IMG/VR virus record: IMGVR_UViG_2548876867_000015
Coordinates: 1-40,160 of that record
Length of the DNA: 40,160 nucleotides
Direction: 5' to 3' (one strand)
Origin: a virus
Taxonomy: Duplodnaviria > Heunggongvirae > Uroviricota > Caudoviricetes
Shown here: positions 9,001 to 30,000 of the stretch, piece by piece
Layout of the letters: every line of letters begins with the position of its first letter
How positions within the stretch are numbered: the first letter of the stretch is position 1
Position numbers: made by a program

Positions 9001-12000
9001 CTTTATCATCAAATAAAGTATACGTTGGAATAATAAATGGTTCTGGTGAACCAACAGAAAATCAGGGGCCACACCAGCATATATCTTTTGTTCCTTTAAT
9101 GTCAGGATACAGAAACAAAGAAAATTTATCAGTTACATTTACAAATGCTTATCCAGGTGAAATCCAAATTAAGCGCAGTGCTGCGATAAAAGGGATAAGT
9201 AAAAAGAAAGTTCAAGGTCTAGAAATTATGGTATCTATAGACGAAATAAGTCATATATCATGGTTTGACTTTGAAGTATATAAGGCAACAAATAATAAAG
9301 TAGAAACAAAGGGATATGTTGTCAATGTGACTAAAAATGGTCGCAACATATACCACAGAAGTGTCAGAAAATAATTTCACACATTATAGGTAGCCATATG
9401 GATAACACTATTATCGGCGCATTGATAGGTGCAGTTATTGCTATAGTTTCCACTTATATAAATGCAAGACAAGGATACAAAAACAGCATAAGATTAGAGC
9501 GCCAAAAAATATTAAGGGATAAACGCGAGCAATTATTTATAAATTGTATACTTGCTGAAAAAGTCATAGTTTCAAGCGAAATTACCATTCTCAATTTTGT
9601 AAAAAATGCCAGATACCACTCTGATAGTAAATTTGACGTATCAAGAGCGAATCCGTTGCAAACGATGGAAATGCTAATAAACATATACCTTCCTGAGTAT
9701 AAAAAAGACTTACAAGAACTCAATAATGCGTATCAAGAATTTCACAAATACTACTCTAAATATACAACCCCGGATAACTTCAAAGATATGCCTTATAGTG
9801 AGAAGGTTAAGTTTATTTCTGAAGCTAACTCTTATGCAAAAAAGATATATGGCAAACTTAATGATATTAAGGTTAAGATATCATCTAATTCAATAGTATG
9901 ACAGCGACACTGCTGCTGACGGCTCCCGCTGCGGCGGGCGTTCTGCGGATTCCCGCCCGGGCGGCGGTGGCATTCGTTAAAAACAAGGCCGCGAAAGCGG
10001 CCTGTGACATGTCACGATTTATAAAGATGACTGATATTTTACAACTCTGTTCATGGCATCTTTTTTCACCTAGCTGATATCAGTTCTTATTTTGGCTTCG
10101 TCATTACTGCTTATCATGCTATTAACTTTTTGCACTGACATGCCGTTTCTTTCAGCCATTGCACATACAGCAGCATCGTATGAAGAACTCGCTGCGATGG
10201 ATATCACCTTGTTACACTCAAACACAGCACCTTCAGCAATATCAGATGCCGATGATGCTGGCTTGGTATAAGTCTTGACGTAGTGATCAATACAACTATC
10301 CTTCGCCGTCTTGGCAAGGGAAAAATCTATTTTAACTTTGTCGCAATATGCATTATCAACACCGTCATAAACATCATAGGATGTCGAGCAAGCAGATATC
10401 AAAAATACCGATAACAGCAATAATTCCTTCATTGTTGTTCCTTATTGAGGAGCGACATCCTGAGGTCGCCACCAGTATGTCTGGTTAAACTCTTTCTTCG
10501 AACGTTGCTCCATTTTACGCAAATAGCCTGGTGAAAAATACTCCTGCATCTGGTTAAAGATCATGTGATCGAGAGCCGCCTTCAAGTACCAGAGATTCGC
10601 ACCAGGCATTAGACCCTTCCCCAGCTTAACCAGATCACCACCAGTCTGCTCATTCTTCCCTTCCACAGCATTTAGAGGTATGCCCTGAGCTATCTTCACT
10701 ACGTCATCAACCAGACCAGCTACCGGGCCAAGCATCGACGCCAGCGCGCCGCTCCCGTACCTAGTGTGGTCAGAGAAAAGAAAATCACCGTACAACCCAG
10801 CCCCACCACCTTTTAAAAATGCATTTATCCAGAATTTAACCATGTGGTCACCGGTCATTTCCTTTGGATTTCTCCCATTAATAAGATCAGTAATCTGCAT
10901 GGAAAGAGCACCAAGCATGGTTGTGCTTGCTAAAAACGTTGCTATATATGCTGCACGCCCACCAGCAGACGGCATACCCATAGCGCGTGACCAGTGACGC
11001 ATAACAACCGAGATAGGGAACGATTTAAACAGGAAAACACTTCTCGTTAATTCACCTTTCCATGTTCCACGCTGAAGACCAGACCCTACGAACATCTGTT
11101 CACGTGCGCCCGGTGTAATAACAGCCATATCAACTTCTTCAGTTACGGCACCGAGCAGTTTACGCATTGCCTCAAATTTCACGCGTTCAGGCTCACCAAG
11201 ATGTTTAACTGCTGAATCAGGGATACGCATAATGCTTTCCGGTGTCAGCATCGTATTATTACCGTTCCCCCAGTCCTCCTGTTGCGCCAACTTCCATACG
11301 CTCCAGTCTGTGTCAGTAATCCCTTTGCTTTTCAGGATACGAAAATCAGAGTCATCGAGGCTACGAAGGTCTGGTGTCCGTGACACTACTTCTCCCAGGC
11401 TTCCCATCATGGTTACGCCATAGGCGCGCTTGTGCGCATCTGACCATGCTGTAAGCCCACTGGCACGCATTACCGCCGTTGCCGCCCAACGAGACACTGA
11501 CGGCCCCATATTATCCATCGCCCAGCGGTTAACGCTGCCAAGTAGAGATTCCATCGCCAGACCAGCGCGGCGCGCCCGCGCAAGTTCTGTACGGTTCGTT
11601 GGGTCCATAGCTTCAAGCTGGTTGCGGAATAACTGGTTCATTGGAAGGTTGGTAACCTTCGCAGACAGATACATGGTTCCAAGATCAGAGAACGATGACA
11701 GCAACGCGGATCCGAGTCTGCTGGCAACCAGCCAGTTGCGGATATTGTCAGACCATCGCGCGATGTGCGGATTCGCTACAGGCTGTGTCTTTCCAGAAAT
11801 AAAGTTGTACAGATTCTCTGTGTTGTTCGCCAGCCGCTCGACTTTACCGGTTTTACTCGGGTTAGCTGTTGCCGTTTCTGCCTTAACCTGATCAAGAAGG
11901 GAGCGGAAAACATGATCGGGGTTTGGGCCATATGTTTCCACCAGTGCAATATCTTTACTGATACCTTCCAGGTGACCGACCATGATTTCCCATAGAGAGC

Positions 12001-27000: not shown

Positions 27001-30000
27001 GCCCTTTTTACAGCAGGACGCCATTGCGATGACTTCATGCTGTAAACCAGTACAGCCACGGAAGGCATAACTCATTGCTTCCAGTTCGCCCGGTTCGCCG
27101 GGCATTTTTTTAAGGTGAATATTATGACGAAGACAGTTGAAGGCATTCAGAAACAATCTCCTGCTGAAGAGATTCGCCGCGAGAACCTCTACCACACTAA
27201 GCTTCAATGCCTAGCTGAAGTGCTTAGTAAAAGATCTTTACTCGATGAGCGTGGTGCCGTGCAGGATGCCAAAGCGATCAACGCCGCATTCGATAAAATT
27301 ACTTTCTAGCGCCGTGACATGTCACAATCAGCCAGCCTATGAGCTGGCTTTGTTTTATCCTCACCAGAGGATATCAACGACATTATCCCCACCAGCGGAT
27401 TAAGCATAGGGATCGTAATCTGTGATGGCCTTGCCTTGCTGGTTCTGCTGACCGGGAATTCGCAGACGCTTCGACACAGGGAACGCAAACGTCAGCAGTA
27501 GCGCATCGCCTTTACCAGGAGAACGCCCAAGTCGCTCTTTGATATCTTCCTTCGGTTCGATAACGATTTTACCGTCCACTCGAACTTTGTACTCTGCTGC
27601 CGACAGGTCGTCCGCTGTTTCCTGGTCATCAAGCATGCCGCCCAGCCTCAGCCATGTCTTGCATGAGTTGAACATCTCCCCACGCTTGTTGAGCATCTGC
27701 GGGTCAGTAGACGCGCCACCGAACGGAACAAGTTGCCATGTACGACCCCATCCGTCACCGATTGACTTCAGACCGGTTCCGTAACCGAAGTCGATGAACA
27801 CCGCGTCAGCCTGGTACTGGTCTTCAAAGTCAGCGATACGCTTCGCCATAATCAGATCGTCGGTGGTCTTGTTACCAGTCCATAGCACCTTACTGTGCAG
27901 CCCCTGCCGCAGGTATATCACCGCGTCATCAACGCCTGAGTATGCCGGGTCAACGCCGATTATCACCGGAGCATGTGCAACCTGCGCAGCGGTTACCACC
28001 CGTTTCATTGCCTCATCAGTAAGACCGGTAGGGATAAACTGCAATTCAGATGCATCAGGGAATATGCCGCGCACACGGATTTTAACGAAGTCGCTGTCTT
28101 CCCCGTAGTCATCAACCCATTTCTGCAACTGCTGTTTGTTAGTGCCTTCCACCGTCCGGCTGTCAATCTGCGCACACTTCCAGCGGTGTTTGTACTTGCG
28201 GAAACATTCACGGAAACGCCCGGTGTTACGCGTCGGGTTCCCGAACGCCACCCAGATGATTTCGGTGTCTTCGTCCGTCAGCGCACCCTCTGCTACCTCC
28301 CACACCAGATCGGCAATGTTCGACGCTTCATCGAATACCACGATGATGCGTTTGCGCTCGTTGTGTAGTCCGGCGAATGCCTCAGTGTTGTGCTCAGACC
28401 AGGGGATTGCGTCAGCTCGCCACCGCTTGTCGTGCCCAGGATCATTGCTGTACATCGCGGTAGCGGTACAGGTAAACCAGTCTTTCGTGATAGCAAGGTT
28501 CGACCACTTGATAATTTCCGGCCAGGTCTTCGTTCGTAGCTGGTTGTCGGTGTTGGCGGTCACCACGACCTTACAATCATCGCAAGTGGACATGCCCCAG
28601 TTGATCAGCATTGAGATGAATGCGGATTTACCAATACCGTGACCAGAAGCGCGTGCCAGCATAAGCGGCTGATAGCGCGTCTCTGGATTCTGCAGGTGAT
28701 CACGTATCTCTCGGAACGCATCAGCCTGCCACTGACGTGGGCCGGTGGCATGTGCCAGTTCAGTCCCCTCTTCCCCCCACGGGAACGCATAGAGAGCATA
28801 GCCAAGCGGATCGTGAGTGAACCCTGCAATATCCTCGATCAACTGCTCTTCAGGAGATAACGCTGTATCTGTCACTGATTACCATCCTGACGTTCTTTGA
28901 GTCGCTTCCTGGCTGCCGCTATGCGATCAGCAATTGTCACATTCACATTAACATCCAGGCGTTCTTTGAACGCGTTGACATCAACATGCTTACCAATCAG
29001 CTCAAGGTTCTTCACCTTGTCAGGCCATTTAATTTTTTTGAGGATTGTCTCTATCGAATCCTCGTTCATGTTCATGATGGTCGATGACAGATCAAAGCCA
29101 CTAAGCGTAGTGCGCCAGATTTTCGGCCACTCACGGATTGGTTTAAGGCTCCCATCGTCGTTGAGGATGTCGATCACGTCCATCTGGTCGATCTCCACCA
29201 GGCGCATGAGAACGTAATCAGCACTGACGCGCATTCGTTTGTTGCGCTCCTCCATCAACTCGGCAATCCGTTTTTGAATGCGTTCATCGCGCATCATGAC
29301 ACTGGCTTTAACTGCCGCTGTATTTGGGGAGAATCCTGCGTTAATCGCTGCCTGAGTTTGGTTTTCAGGCGTTTTGATGTATGACTGGCAATAAGCCTCC
29401 TGCATTGCTGTTAGTGGCTTAAATTGCGTTGATTTGCGTTTATAGGTTTTAGGTTCAGCAGGCATCATAACCACCGTGGTAATAGTTACCGTTGTGGTAA
29501 TAGTACCATGCAAAATAAAGCCGCCATAGTTGGCGGCAGTATTCAAAACCCATCAAATTCATCATGCATAATCTACTCGTGACATGTCACACTATTAATT
29601 TCGTTTCATGCCAGCCTTTAGTCACCCAGCATTGCGAGTCACCATTACACGGGCATGAATTAACGGGAACTCTCTCGCCGCACTTACCGCAAAGTTTTCT
29701 GCTGATCGATTTTATACGCCCGCGCACACGTGCATCATCCTGGCGGATCAGTGACGCTATATACTCACCAAATTCGTAAGGCGCACGCCCGGGGCGACGC
29801 GTGGCACAGTTACGCTCTAGCATTTCAATTTCCTGAGCATCAAGCACAATCTCCATCTTACGCACACCAGATGCAGCTTGTCTGGCTCTCTGAGCGGCTT
29901 TGCGCTCTGCTGCTGATTTAGCCATTCTGATTTTCCTGCATCATGAGAAATACAATCATGGCGGCGCGGAGAGGTCTGGTATCAAATATTGGTCTTACGT

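What the first reader, a model, noticed from the sequence alone, without database searches (positions are those of the whole stretch)
10004..29590. Perfect 12-bp palindrome GTGACATGTCAC repeated three times at module junctions
Seen in sequence: (C/T)GTGACATGTCAC(A/G) at 10004-10015, 27314-27325 and 29579-29590. Each copy lies where the - strand late operon starts or meets a + strand island: upstream of terS (overlapping the stop of the Cys-cluster gene), at the right edge of the tRNA island, and at the right edge of the antirepressor/cargo island. Two copies abut terminator hairpins. Inference: binding site for a dimeric late regulator or anti-terminator, an RNA processing site, or a conserved linker used in modular recombination. 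It differs from the TTACC-N5-GGTAA operator, so a second regulator is implied.
Basis: partly seen in the sequence, partly recalled or inferred. Interest (0 to 1): 0.65.

Follow-up and report, generated by a model that had tools for sequence, protein, structure and literature searches.

The report
Binding site for a phage regulator
The thrice-repeated 12-base palindrome is real and is most likely the DNA docking site of a small, uncharacterised phage protein whose own gene ends inside one copy; the same site-plus-gene pair recurs in seven unrelated groups of temperate phages, and the site is one base shorter than the bacterial chromosome-organising site matS.

Summary
GTGACATGTCAC occurs exactly three times, at 10004, 27314 and 29579, against 0 in 100 shuffles. 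The window is a phiV10/epsilon15-type prophage. The same palindrome sits at the same three places in epsilon15 and SPN1S, which are only about 76% identical, and at the two sites their linear records retain in phiV10 and Tyrion.

The general form is GTGAC-N2-GTCAC. It overlaps the stop codon of the 112-aa Cys-cluster gene (29587-29925, epsilon15 gp49 / N15 gp46 family, PHROG 536). It does so in the same register in Uetakeviruses, N15-like phages and P2-like Yersinia phages. It lies within or near that gene in Vibrio, Aeromonas and Mu-like phages. P2 and P22 have neither the gene nor the motif, and no other half-site spacing is enriched.

The protein models as a ribbon-helix-helix DNA binder with a conserved basic helix. 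Its C-terminal half shows moderate similarity to the TraR-type zinc finger.

I conclude the palindrome is this protein's operator. Its regulatory output is inferred, not shown. The copies sit 0, 4 and 41 nt upstream of intrinsic terminators at transcription-unit ends, so my best guess is control of read-through.

The half-sites equal those of E. coli matS (GTGACATTGTCAC), but there is no sequence homology to MatP. Mosaic breakpoints coincide with the site, probably as a consequence.

The parts
29579..29590 (.). Palindrome copy A (GTGACATGTCAC). The TGA stop of the gp49-family gene is motif positions 2-4 on the - strand.
   Evidence: The same register holds in 80/88 Uetakevirus, 50/50 N15-like and 48/55 Yersinia P2-like loci.
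27314..27325 (.). Palindrome copy B. It lies between the + strand cargo ORF stop (TAG 27307-27309, 4 nt away) and the + strand terminator (4 nt away), at the terL end.
   Evidence: The equivalent copy is present in phiV10, epsilon15, SPN1S and Tyrion.
10004..10015 (.). Palindrome copy C. It lies at the end of the structural (late) operon and directly abuts the - strand terminator.
   Evidence: The equivalent copy is present in phiV10, epsilon15, SPN1S and Tyrion.
29587..29925 (-). Gene for the 112-aa candidate binding protein (epsilon15 gp49 / phiV10 p55 / N15 gp46 family, PHROG 536). It has a basic helix and a ribbon-helix-helix N-terminal half, and a Cys-cluster zinc finger C-terminal half with moderate TraR-type similarity.
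29510..29537 (-). Intrinsic terminator (GCCGCCAACTATGGCGGC plus TTTATTTT) between copy A and terS.
   Evidence: It is annotated in epsilon15 at the equivalent place.
27330..27359 (+). Intrinsic terminator of the + strand island, 4 nt after copy B.
9976..10003 (-). Intrinsic terminator of the late operon, directly after copy C.
29486..29500 (.). TTACC-N5-GGTAA repressor operator between the terminator and the terS start. This is a different regulator's site.
   Evidence: The equivalent site is annotated as repressor binding in epsilon15.
28872..29468 (-). terS (small terminase), with the probable ATG at 29468. It is the first gene of the late region.
27400..28875 (-). terL (large terminase). 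Its 3' end faces copy B.
27124..27309 (+). Cargo ORF, a remnant matching only the C-terminal 52 residues of PHROG 4846. It ends 4 nt before copy B.
   Evidence: In relatives, 6 unrelated sequences occupy this slot.
10070..10432 (-). Last gene of the late operon (PHROG 8691). It is a variable slot that differs from phiV10, epsilon15 and Tyrion and ends 54 nt before copy C.
24460..24471 (.). One-mismatch copy GTGCCATGTCAC inside a coding region. It is probably a chance match and not part of the system.
   Evidence: It is absent at the equivalent place in epsilon15.

Best explanation
The palindrome is the cognate DNA site (general form GTGAC-N2-GTCAC) of the small protein encoded by the gene whose stop codon it overlaps (window 29587-29925, the epsilon15 gp49 / N15 gp46 family).

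The protein is predicted to be a ribbon-helix-helix dimer. A conserved N-terminal basic helix would read the invariant outer half-sites, and the variable beta-strand would lie over the variable centre. Its C-terminal half shows moderate similarity to a TraR-type zinc finger, a module that in TraR binds RNA polymerase.

The protein is made as the last product of the early-right operon. It would then occupy three sites at the ends of transcription units: after its own gene and before terS, at the terL/cargo junction, and at the end of the structural operon. Each site is 0, 4 or 41 nt upstream of an intrinsic terminator in the direction of the transcript that ends there.

I propose that it acts on RNA polymerase at these boundaries. 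The most likely effect is to license read-through, from early transcription into terS and from the structural operon towards the tailspike and lysis genes. This would be a job analogous to lambda Q, done by an unrelated protein.

What is shown: the conservation, the gene-motif co-occurrence, the fold class and the adjacency to terminators. What is inferred: the binding itself, contact with polymerase, and the direction of the effect.

My sub-estimates:
- site of this protein family: about 0.7
- acts on transcription at unit boundaries: about 0.5
- specifically anti-termination: about 0.3
For: (1) The exact 12-mer is conserved at all three equivalent positions in epsilon15 and SPN1S, which are about 76% identical in DNA. 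It is present at two positions in phiV10 and Tyrion, where the third falls at the end of the linear record. The flanks differ in all of these.

(2) The motif overlaps the family gene's stop codon with TGA at motif positions 2-4 in 80/88 Uetakevirus, 50/50 N15-like and 48/55 Yersinia P2-like loci. The proteins in these groups are only 36-40% identical, and only 4 of the 12 bases are coding.

(3) Motif counts per genome or locus are far above the expected 0.03-0.05:
- window: 3
- epsilon15: 3
- SPN1S: 3
- N15: 3
- Vibrio K233: 3
- Aeromonas 59.1: 1 exact plus 3 copies of GTGACCGGACAC
- Mu-like L199: 2 in 20 kb
- L200: 3 in 20 kb

(4) Across 3.6 Mb of related DNA the N2 spacing occurs 319 times. 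Spacings N0, N1 and N3-N7 occur 0-4 times each.

(5) The control phages P2 and P22 have no homolog and no motif at any spacing.

(7) R8, K9, Q12 and R13 of the N-terminal helix are invariant or nearly so, whereas the beta-strand region is variable. This parallels the invariant half-sites and variable centre of the motif.

(8) The C-terminal half matches TraR and YbiI at hmmsearch E 0.006-0.01. hhalign gives probability 81% against TraR and 55% against a TraR-family profile.

(9) Intrinsic terminators lie 0, 4 and 41 nt from the copies. The 0-4 nt adjacency at sites B and C holds in epsilon15, SPN1S, phiV10 and Tyrion.

(10) The gene occupies the position of Q: it is the last early gene, followed by a terminator and then terS. 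No Q-family domain was found in the ORFs scanned next to the sites, and neither the phiV10 nor the epsilon15 record annotates one.
Against: - No binding experiment exists, so the link between protein and site is correlative.
- I found the other lineages through the protein. Host-related causes are therefore excluded only by two control phages.
- The TraR similarity is moderate, and comparisons with DksA and P2 Orf82 match only the zinc knuckle.
- The helix that aligns with the TraR channel-inserting helix is also helix B of the RHH, so a TraR-like insertion into polymerase is doubtful.
- The family is not a universal late regulator. N15 has a Q-like protein and the P2-like phage has an Ogr-type regulator.
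- Each late unit in this phage has its own repressor operator, so read-through may not be needed.
- At site B the stop-palindrome-terminator order belongs to the cargo strand, not the late strand.
- The distance from copy A to its terminator varies (23 nt, 41 nt, or a whole inserted ORF).
- No conserved promoter accompanies the sites.
Confidence: 0.55

Rival explanations
1. The same protein binds the sites, but as a classical repressor, roadblock or insulator. It would shut off or fence transcription units, or autoregulate its own operon's distal end, rather than promote read-through.
For: - In several lineages the motif sits just before the ribosome-binding site of the next gene, or about 16-17 nt after a TACTAT -10-like hexamer. 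These are typical operator or roadblock positions.
- In the window, half of the palindrome (GTGACA) forms the -35 of the only promoter-like match near site A.
- The sites lie where convergent units meet.
Against: - A factor made only late in the early operon is not needed to make intrinsic terminators work.
- At sites B and C the protein would sit upstream of the terminator for the transcript that ends there. There it cannot act as a roadblock.
- The promoter-like match at site A is at chance level (1 found, 0.8 expected) and is not conserved in epsilon15.
Confidence: 0.22
2. The sites work like matS and the function is not transcriptional. They would be bound by host MatP, or by the phage protein acting as a MatP analogue. 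The purpose would be to organise or bridge phage DNA, or to keep the MukBEF condensin off it.
For: - The half-sites are identical to matS. The E. coli consensus is GTGACATTGTCAC (PMC8669397; pattern GTGAC[AG]N[TC]GTCAC in PMC3603311). The window palindrome is that consensus minus one central T.
- MatP reads matS with a helix plus the RHH strand (PMC8669397). The phage protein has the same order of elements.
- By my own knowledge, all hosts of phages carrying the family are MatP/MukBEF-containing gamma-proteobacteria: Escherichia, Salmonella, Klebsiella, Yersinia, Vibrio, Aeromonas and Pectobacterium.
Against: - The spacing is N2 in every one of seven lineages. N3, the true matS spacing, occurs once in 3.6 Mb.
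- True matS is absent from 500 prophages (PMC3603311).
- There is no sequence homology to MatP: hhalign probability 0.1-1%.
- There is no four-helix bundle and no coiled coil. The C-terminus is a zinc finger.
- The tight, conserved coupling to stop codons and terminators points to gene expression.
Confidence: 0.12
3. The element acts in RNA, as a small hairpin, an RNase processing site or a protein-binding site in the 3' untranslated region just before the terminator.
For: - In the direction of the transcript that ends at the adjacent terminator, the order is always stop codon, then palindrome, then terminator.
- In other lineages the motif often lies just 5' of a ribosome-binding site.
- The minimum-free-energy folds of sites A and B include the 4-bp mini-hairpin.
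Against: - The hairpin is worth only -1.2 kcal/mol and is absent from the fold of site C.
- The loop bases are also self-complementary in this phage group, which RNA folding does not require.
- Across lineages the stems are invariant in sequence, with no compensatory changes, while the centre varies. This is the signature of sequence-specific duplex recognition.
- Rfam finds nothing at these positions.
Confidence: 0.06
4. The palindrome has no function of its own. It is only a conserved linker where related phages recombine, or a relic copied together with a terminator.
For: - Sequence similarity between relatives breaks exactly at the palindrome.
- At site B there are 2 conserved-side clusters against 6 unrelated variable-side clusters in 80 relatives.
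- At site A an extra ORF starts 10 nt after the palindrome in about a third of relatives.
- At site C a different last gene is found in each of phiV10, epsilon15, Tyrion and the window.
Against: - Twelve bases are too few for homologous recombination.
- The three adjacent terminators are unrelated in sequence, so the copies are not duplicated modules.
- The motif persists, with different central bases, in seven phage lineages that share no flanking sequence.
- It decays where relatives diverge further: sites B and C in the Klebsiella prophage. This is how a dispensable extra operator behaves, not a structural linker.
Confidence: 0.05

Closest known systems
MatP / matS (Ter macrodomain system of E. 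coli and relatives)
   Different: The spacer is 2 bp, not 3, in all lineages. There is no detectable sequence homology. The protein has 112 aa and lacks the four-helix bundle and the C-terminal coiled coil, carrying a Cys4 zinc finger instead. The sites are tied to stop codons and terminators in a 40-kb phage, not spread over an 800-kb chromosomal domain.
Ribbon-helix-helix repressors of phages and plasmids (Arc, Mnt, CopG, omega, antitoxins)
   Same: These are small dimeric proteins with the predicted beta-alpha-alpha core. They have short palindromic or repeated operators and sites next to or inside their own gene.
   Different: The conserved specificity appears to reside in an extra N-terminal basic helix and in outer half-sites 7 bp apart. 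The protein is fused to a zinc finger. The main site lies at the 3' end of the gene rather than at its promoter.
TraR / DksA family (PF01258), RNA polymerase secondary-channel factors; phage examples include P2 Orf82
   Same: A long helix is followed by a CxxCG..P...C zinc knuckle and a short C-terminal helix. hmmsearch gives E 0.006-0.01 against YbiI and TraR. hhalign gives 81% against TraR and 55% against a TraR-family profile.
   Different: The fourth Cys is displaced. The acidic N-terminal tip is absent. The aligned helix doubles as RHH helix B. No Pfam PF01258 hit occurs in any of 84 members. TraR-family proteins are not known to bind DNA.
Lambda Q-type late antiterminators (Q-lambda, Q82, Q21; P22 gp23)
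   Same: The layout is the same: the regulator gene is the last early gene, its DNA site is at the gene's end, a short stretch leads to an intrinsic terminator, and the late genes follow. Compare the P22 late promoter to its terminator, within about 60 nt. Both are small proteins with a zinc-binding motif.
   Different: No homology to any Q family was found (no Pfam hit). There is no conserved promoter or sigma-dependent pause element at the site. There are three sites rather than one. Family members coexist with a Q-like protein in N15.

Membership tests
MatP/matS | 13-bp site GTGAC[AG]N[TC]GTCAC (3-bp spacer) | tested here: not met
   All copies have a 2-bp spacer. N3 occurs once in 3.6 Mb of related phage DNA against 319 N2 copies. 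The pattern is taken from PMC3603311 and PMC8669397.
MatP/matS | Protein homologous to MatP | tested here: not met
   hhalign of the family profiles against E. coli MatP gives probability 0.1% (A1) and 1% (A2). There are no Pfam or NCBIfam MatP hits.
MatP/matS | DNA read by a helix preceding the RHH strand, plus the strand itself | tested here: inconclusive
MatP/matS | C-terminal coiled coil for tetramerisation and ZapB contact | tested here: not met
   The C-terminus is a Cys-cluster loop plus a short helix.
Ribbon-helix-helix (CopG/Arc/MetJ) DNA-binding proteins | Beta-alpha-alpha fold forming an intertwined dimer | tested here: inconclusive
Ribbon-helix-helix (CopG/Arc/MetJ) DNA-binding proteins | Sequence-specific binding to a palindromic or repeated operator | not testable with these tools
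   Only co-occurrence of gene and motif is shown.
TraR/DksA C4 zinc finger (PF01258) | CxxC-x17-CxxC zinc finger after a long helix; profile match | tested here: inconclusive
   The pattern found is C79-x2-C82 ... C91 ... C99. hmmsearch against PDB gives YbiI at E 0.006 and TraR at E 0.01. hhalign gives 81% and 55%. Against DksA and P2 Orf82 it gives only 4-7%. No member passes Pfam.
TraR/DksA C4 zinc finger (PF01258) | Binds the RNA polymerase secondary channel | not testable with these tools
   This is an inference from the similarity only.
Lambda Q-type antiterminators | Homology to a Q family (Pfam Antiterm, Phage_antitermQ, Phage_antiter_Q) | tested here: not met
   No Pfam family matches at E up to 10 other than noise.
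Lambda Q-type antiterminators | Gene directly upstream of the late operon, with a binding site and then a terminator before the first late gene | tested here: met
   The order on the - strand is: gene stop and palindrome 29590-29579, terminator 29537-29520, terS start 29468. The order is the same in epsilon15.
Lambda Q-type antiterminators | Site embedded in a late promoter with a promoter-proximal pause | tested here: not met
   The only promoter-like match (GTGACA-18-CATGAT) is at chance level and not conserved. There is none at sites B and C.

The most novel reading that the evidence does not exclude
The gp49/gp46 family is a new class of phage regulator. A MatP-like DNA-reading head, specific for a matS variant one base pair shorter, would be fused to a TraR-like RNA-polymerase-binding zinc finger. 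The palindromes would then be loading pads where a secondary-channel-type factor is handed to passing polymerase to switch terminators off. That would supply the missing late switch in epsilon15-type phages, which lack Q. Alternatively, or in addition, the sites could interfere with host MatP/MukBEF handling of the phage DNA.
Probability: 0.2. Interest if true: 0.85.

Novelty: new variant of a known kind. Interest (0 to 1): 0.62.

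Why it matters
How epsilon15/phiV10-type phages time their late genes is not known, as far as I could find. These phages are serotype converters of Salmonella and E. coli O157. They have no Q homolog, and their richly annotated GenBank records do not mark this palindrome.

This work gives a concrete pair to test: a 112-aa protein and a 12-bp site. The pair is present in at least seven temperate phage lineages, including N15-like, P2-like and Mu-like phages. 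The protein family is annotated only as hypothetical or as a generic regulator.

If the zinc-finger half really contacts RNA polymerase, this would be a DNA-tethered member of the TraR/DksA type, which to my knowledge is not described.

The one-base difference from matS raises a testable question. Did the phages borrow the MatP reading head while avoiding the host protein? Prophages are known to avoid true matS (PMC3603311).

In practice, GTGAC-N2-GTCAC can serve as an annotation mark for operon ends and cargo slots in these prophages.

Tried and rejected
**Searches that gave nothing**
- Pfam, NCBIfam and PDB sequence searches with the single protein found nothing significant.
- Foldseek against PDB found nothing. 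The afdb50 library was unavailable.
- Full-text searches for the 12-mer, for late regulation in epsilon15/SPN1S/SPC32H, and for matS-like or MatP-like elements in phages found nothing relevant. The MatP-matS structure paper (Dupaigne 2012) is not held.

**Ideas rejected**
- Homology to MatP: rejected by hhalign.
- The palindrome as a late promoter: the -35-like GTGACA gives one chance-level match at site A only, with no conserved -10 in epsilon15 and none at sites B and C.
- The palindrome as a classical activator site for the terS, portal or tailspike promoters. Distances to the repressor operators vary from about 75 bp to more than 800 bp, and an ORF is inserted between them in relatives.
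- CRP, LacI-type and LexA sites, considered from memory: the spacing and half-sites do not fit. These were not tested.
- Coding constraint as the cause of conservation: only 4 of the 12 bases lie in the ORF.
- The one-mismatch copy at 24460: inside a gene, absent in epsilon15, at chance level.
- Duplicated palindrome-plus-terminator modules: the three terminators are unrelated in sequence.

Full report
**What the window is**

Megablast places bases 9000-30500 at about 97% identity with phiV10-type coliphages and 76-81% with epsilon15, SPN1S and Tyrion, all genus Uetakevirus. The late genes (terS, terL, portal and the rest of the structural genes) lie on the - strand. They are interrupted by + strand islands. 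One island carries tRNA-Arg 26848-26924. Another carries isrK and C4 antisense RNA matches at 7251-7435.

**The observation**

GTGACATGTCAC occurs exactly three times, at 10004, 27314 and 29579. None of 100 shuffles had a copy. Allowing two mismatches adds a single copy inside a coding region, which is chance level.

The 29579 copy overlaps the TGA stop of a 112-aa ORF (29587-29925, - strand) with a C-terminal Cys cluster.

Consensus scans place intrinsic terminators next to each copy:
- stem 10003..9986 on the - strand, 0 nt from the 10004 copy
- stem 27330..27349 on the + strand, 4 nt from the 27314 copy
- stem 29537..29520 on the - strand, 41 nt from the 29579 copy

In each case the order is stop codon, palindrome, terminator, read in the direction of the transcript that ends there.

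**Conservation in the genus**

epsilon15 and SPN1S carry the exact 12-mer at the three equivalent places. phiV10 and Tyrion carry it at two; in both, the third place falls at the cut end of the linear record.

The flanks are diverged or unrelated. At sites B and C the gap to the terminator stem stays at 1-4 nt in all of them.

A more distant Klebsiella prophage keeps site A exactly. Site B has decayed to GCGACATGTTAC and site C to half a site. In the Salmonella phages a near-copy overlaps the Rz stop codon in the same register.

The richly annotated epsilon15 record marks repressor, IHF, RNase III and integrase sites, but not this element.

**Link to the adjacent gene**

The 112-aa protein belongs to PHROG 536 and has no Pfam domain. 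tblastn finds relatives in 155 phage records. These include N15 gene 46, P2-like Yersinia phages, and Vibrio and Aeromonas phages.

In the P2-like Yersinia phage, whose protein is 40% identical, the stop codon is overlapped by GTGACGCGTCAC. In N15, at 36% identity, it is overlapped by GTGACTGGTCAC. The general form is therefore GTGAC-N2-GTCAC, with the TGA stop at motif positions 2-4.

This register holds in 80/88 Uetakevirus, 50/50 N15-like and 48/55 Yersinia-type loci from IMG/VR.

Other genomes and loci also carry the motif:
- N15 has three copies.
- Vibrio phage K233 has three, one of them 19 nt before the terS start.
- Aeromonas phage 59.1 has one exact copy inside the gene plus three copies of GTGACCGGACAC.
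- A Mu-like prophage has two copies in 20 kb, one of them 21 nt before the gene's stop.
- A lambdoid/Mu hybrid prophage has three in 20 kb, one of them inside the gene.

Composition predicts 0.03-0.05 copies per genome. In 3.6 Mb of this DNA the N2 spacing occurs 319 times, and every other spacing from N0 to N7 occurs 0-4 times. P2 and P22 have neither a homolog nor the motif.

The loci within a lineage are closely related. The independent evidence is therefore seven lineages, not hundreds of loci.

**The protein**

The family is small: 234 clusters at 50% identity among 1.84 billion representatives. An AlphaFold model has mean pLDDT 81.5. It shows helix 5-18, an extended segment, helices 30-41 and 52-74, a Cys loop and helix 100-108.

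Across 84 diverse members, R8, K9, Q12 and R13 of the first helix are invariant or nearly so, while the strand region is variable. This matches the invariant outer half-sites and variable centre of the motif.

A profile of the family hits YbiI and TraR in the PDB at E 0.006-0.01, over the long helix, the zinc knuckle and the last helix. hhalign gives 81% against TraR and 55% against a TraR-family profile. Against DksA and P2 Orf82 it matches only the knuckle. I treat the TraR-type C-terminal half as moderately supported.

**The matS resemblance**

The E. coli matS consensus is GTGACATTGTCAC. MatP reads it with helix alpha4 and strand beta1 (PMC8669397). The pattern is GTGAC[AG]N[TC]GTCAC, and it was found in none of 500 prophages (PMC3603311).

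The window palindrome is that consensus minus one central base. No sequence homology to MatP is detectable. The spacing is N2 without exception. I therefore do not file the element under matS. The shared half-sites, the shared order of reading elements and the matching host range remain unexplained, and they are the most interesting lead.

**What it does**

Binding is inferred, not shown. The sites are not at fixed distances from promoters, and no promoter is conserved at them.

Each late unit has its own TTACC-N5-GGTAA repressor operator. There are 9 copies in the window, including 29486 before terS and 26511 before the portal operon. The equivalent sites are annotated as repressor sites in epsilon15.

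What is constant is the position at the end of a transcription unit, next to an intrinsic terminator, together with the position of the gene itself as the last early gene before a terminator and terS. This layout parallels Q and its terminator in P22.

A factor that appears only after the early operon has been read is most simply used to make terminators conditional. My best guess is therefore read-through licensing. A repressor or roadblock role is the main alternative.

An RNA role is unlikely. The hairpin is worth -1.2 kcal/mol, the centre is symmetric, and the stems are invariant rather than covarying.

**Mosaic boundaries**

Similarity between relatives breaks at the palindrome:
- At site B, 2 conserved-side clusters face 6 unrelated cargo-side clusters, and each cargo stop codon lies 4 nt from the palindrome.
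- At site A, an extra 70-aa ORF starts 10 nt after the palindrome in about a third of relatives.
- At site C, the last gene of the operon differs between the window, phiV10, epsilon15 and Tyrion.

I read this as a consequence of a conserved functional patch beside cargo slots.

**Verdict**

The mechanism downstream of binding remains open.

Noticed in passing
window 4352-4363 and 35061-35072: A second 12-bp perfect palindrome, AAACTATAGTTT, occurs twice. The copy at 35061 overlaps the TAA stop of the 194-aa repressor-like gene (34477-35061). It is followed after 10 nt by a terminator (AGCCGCCTCATGGCGGCT plus a T run). This is the same stop-palindrome-terminator layout as the main finding.
   Followed up: partly
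window 7200, 8261, 26511, 29486, 32014, 32076, 34407, 35119, 35181: There are nine copies of TTACC-N5-GGTAA, the motif annotated as the repressor operator in epsilon15. They include copies just upstream of terS and of the portal operon. The late units therefore appear to be directly repressed in the lysogen.
   Followed up: partly
window 7251-7435 (+): There are Rfam matches above gathering score to isrK (7251-7327) and to C4 antisense RNA (7352-7435). This is a P1/P7-type antisense-controlled antirepressor module in the cargo island.
   Followed up: no
L002 (epsilon15) 26618-26629; L006 (SPN1S) 26722-26733; window about 1280-1295: A vestigial fourth copy overlaps the Rz stop codon in the same register: GTGACATGTCAT in SPN1S and GTGACATGGCAT in epsilon15. 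It has decayed to GATAGCATGGCAT in the window and phiV10.
   Followed up: partly
L088 (Klebsiella prophage ST512-KPC3phi13.3) 16785-16850: Directly after site A there is a good promoter (TTGACT-17-TACTGT) overlapped by a near-consensus LexA box, TACTGTTTAAATATACAGTA. It lies in front of an inserted 85-aa gene between the regulator gene and terS.
   Followed up: no
L019 10357-10569 and about a third of loci L008-L087: An extra ORF of about 70 aa (MPKIRYDLEDMRDNS...) of unknown function is inserted between the palindrome and the terS terminator. Its ribosome-binding site starts right after the palindrome.
   Followed up: partly
window 29476-29506 (- strand): A direct repeat, ACTATTACCAC, occurs twice, 17 nt apart, just upstream of the terS start. 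It overlaps the repressor operator.
   Followed up: no
L199 10001-11239; L200 10001-11033: In a Mu-like prophage and in a lambdoid/Mu hybrid prophage, the family gene sits directly upstream of GemA and/or Mor-type regulator genes. It is thus inside the cluster that controls middle and late transcription.
   Followed up: no
L003 (N15) 33237-33248 and 28550-28561: In N15 one motif copy lies inside the repA coding region. Another lies between gene 33 and the antirepressor operon, where it fills the spacer of a possible TGTGCA-17-TAAAAT promoter on the - strand.
   Followed up: no
window 26540-27103 (+): The tRNA island between terL and the portal operon holds three further + strand terminator-like hairpins (26540, 26968, 27088) in about 600 bases. 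Late-direction transcription would have to cross them in antisense.
   Followed up: no
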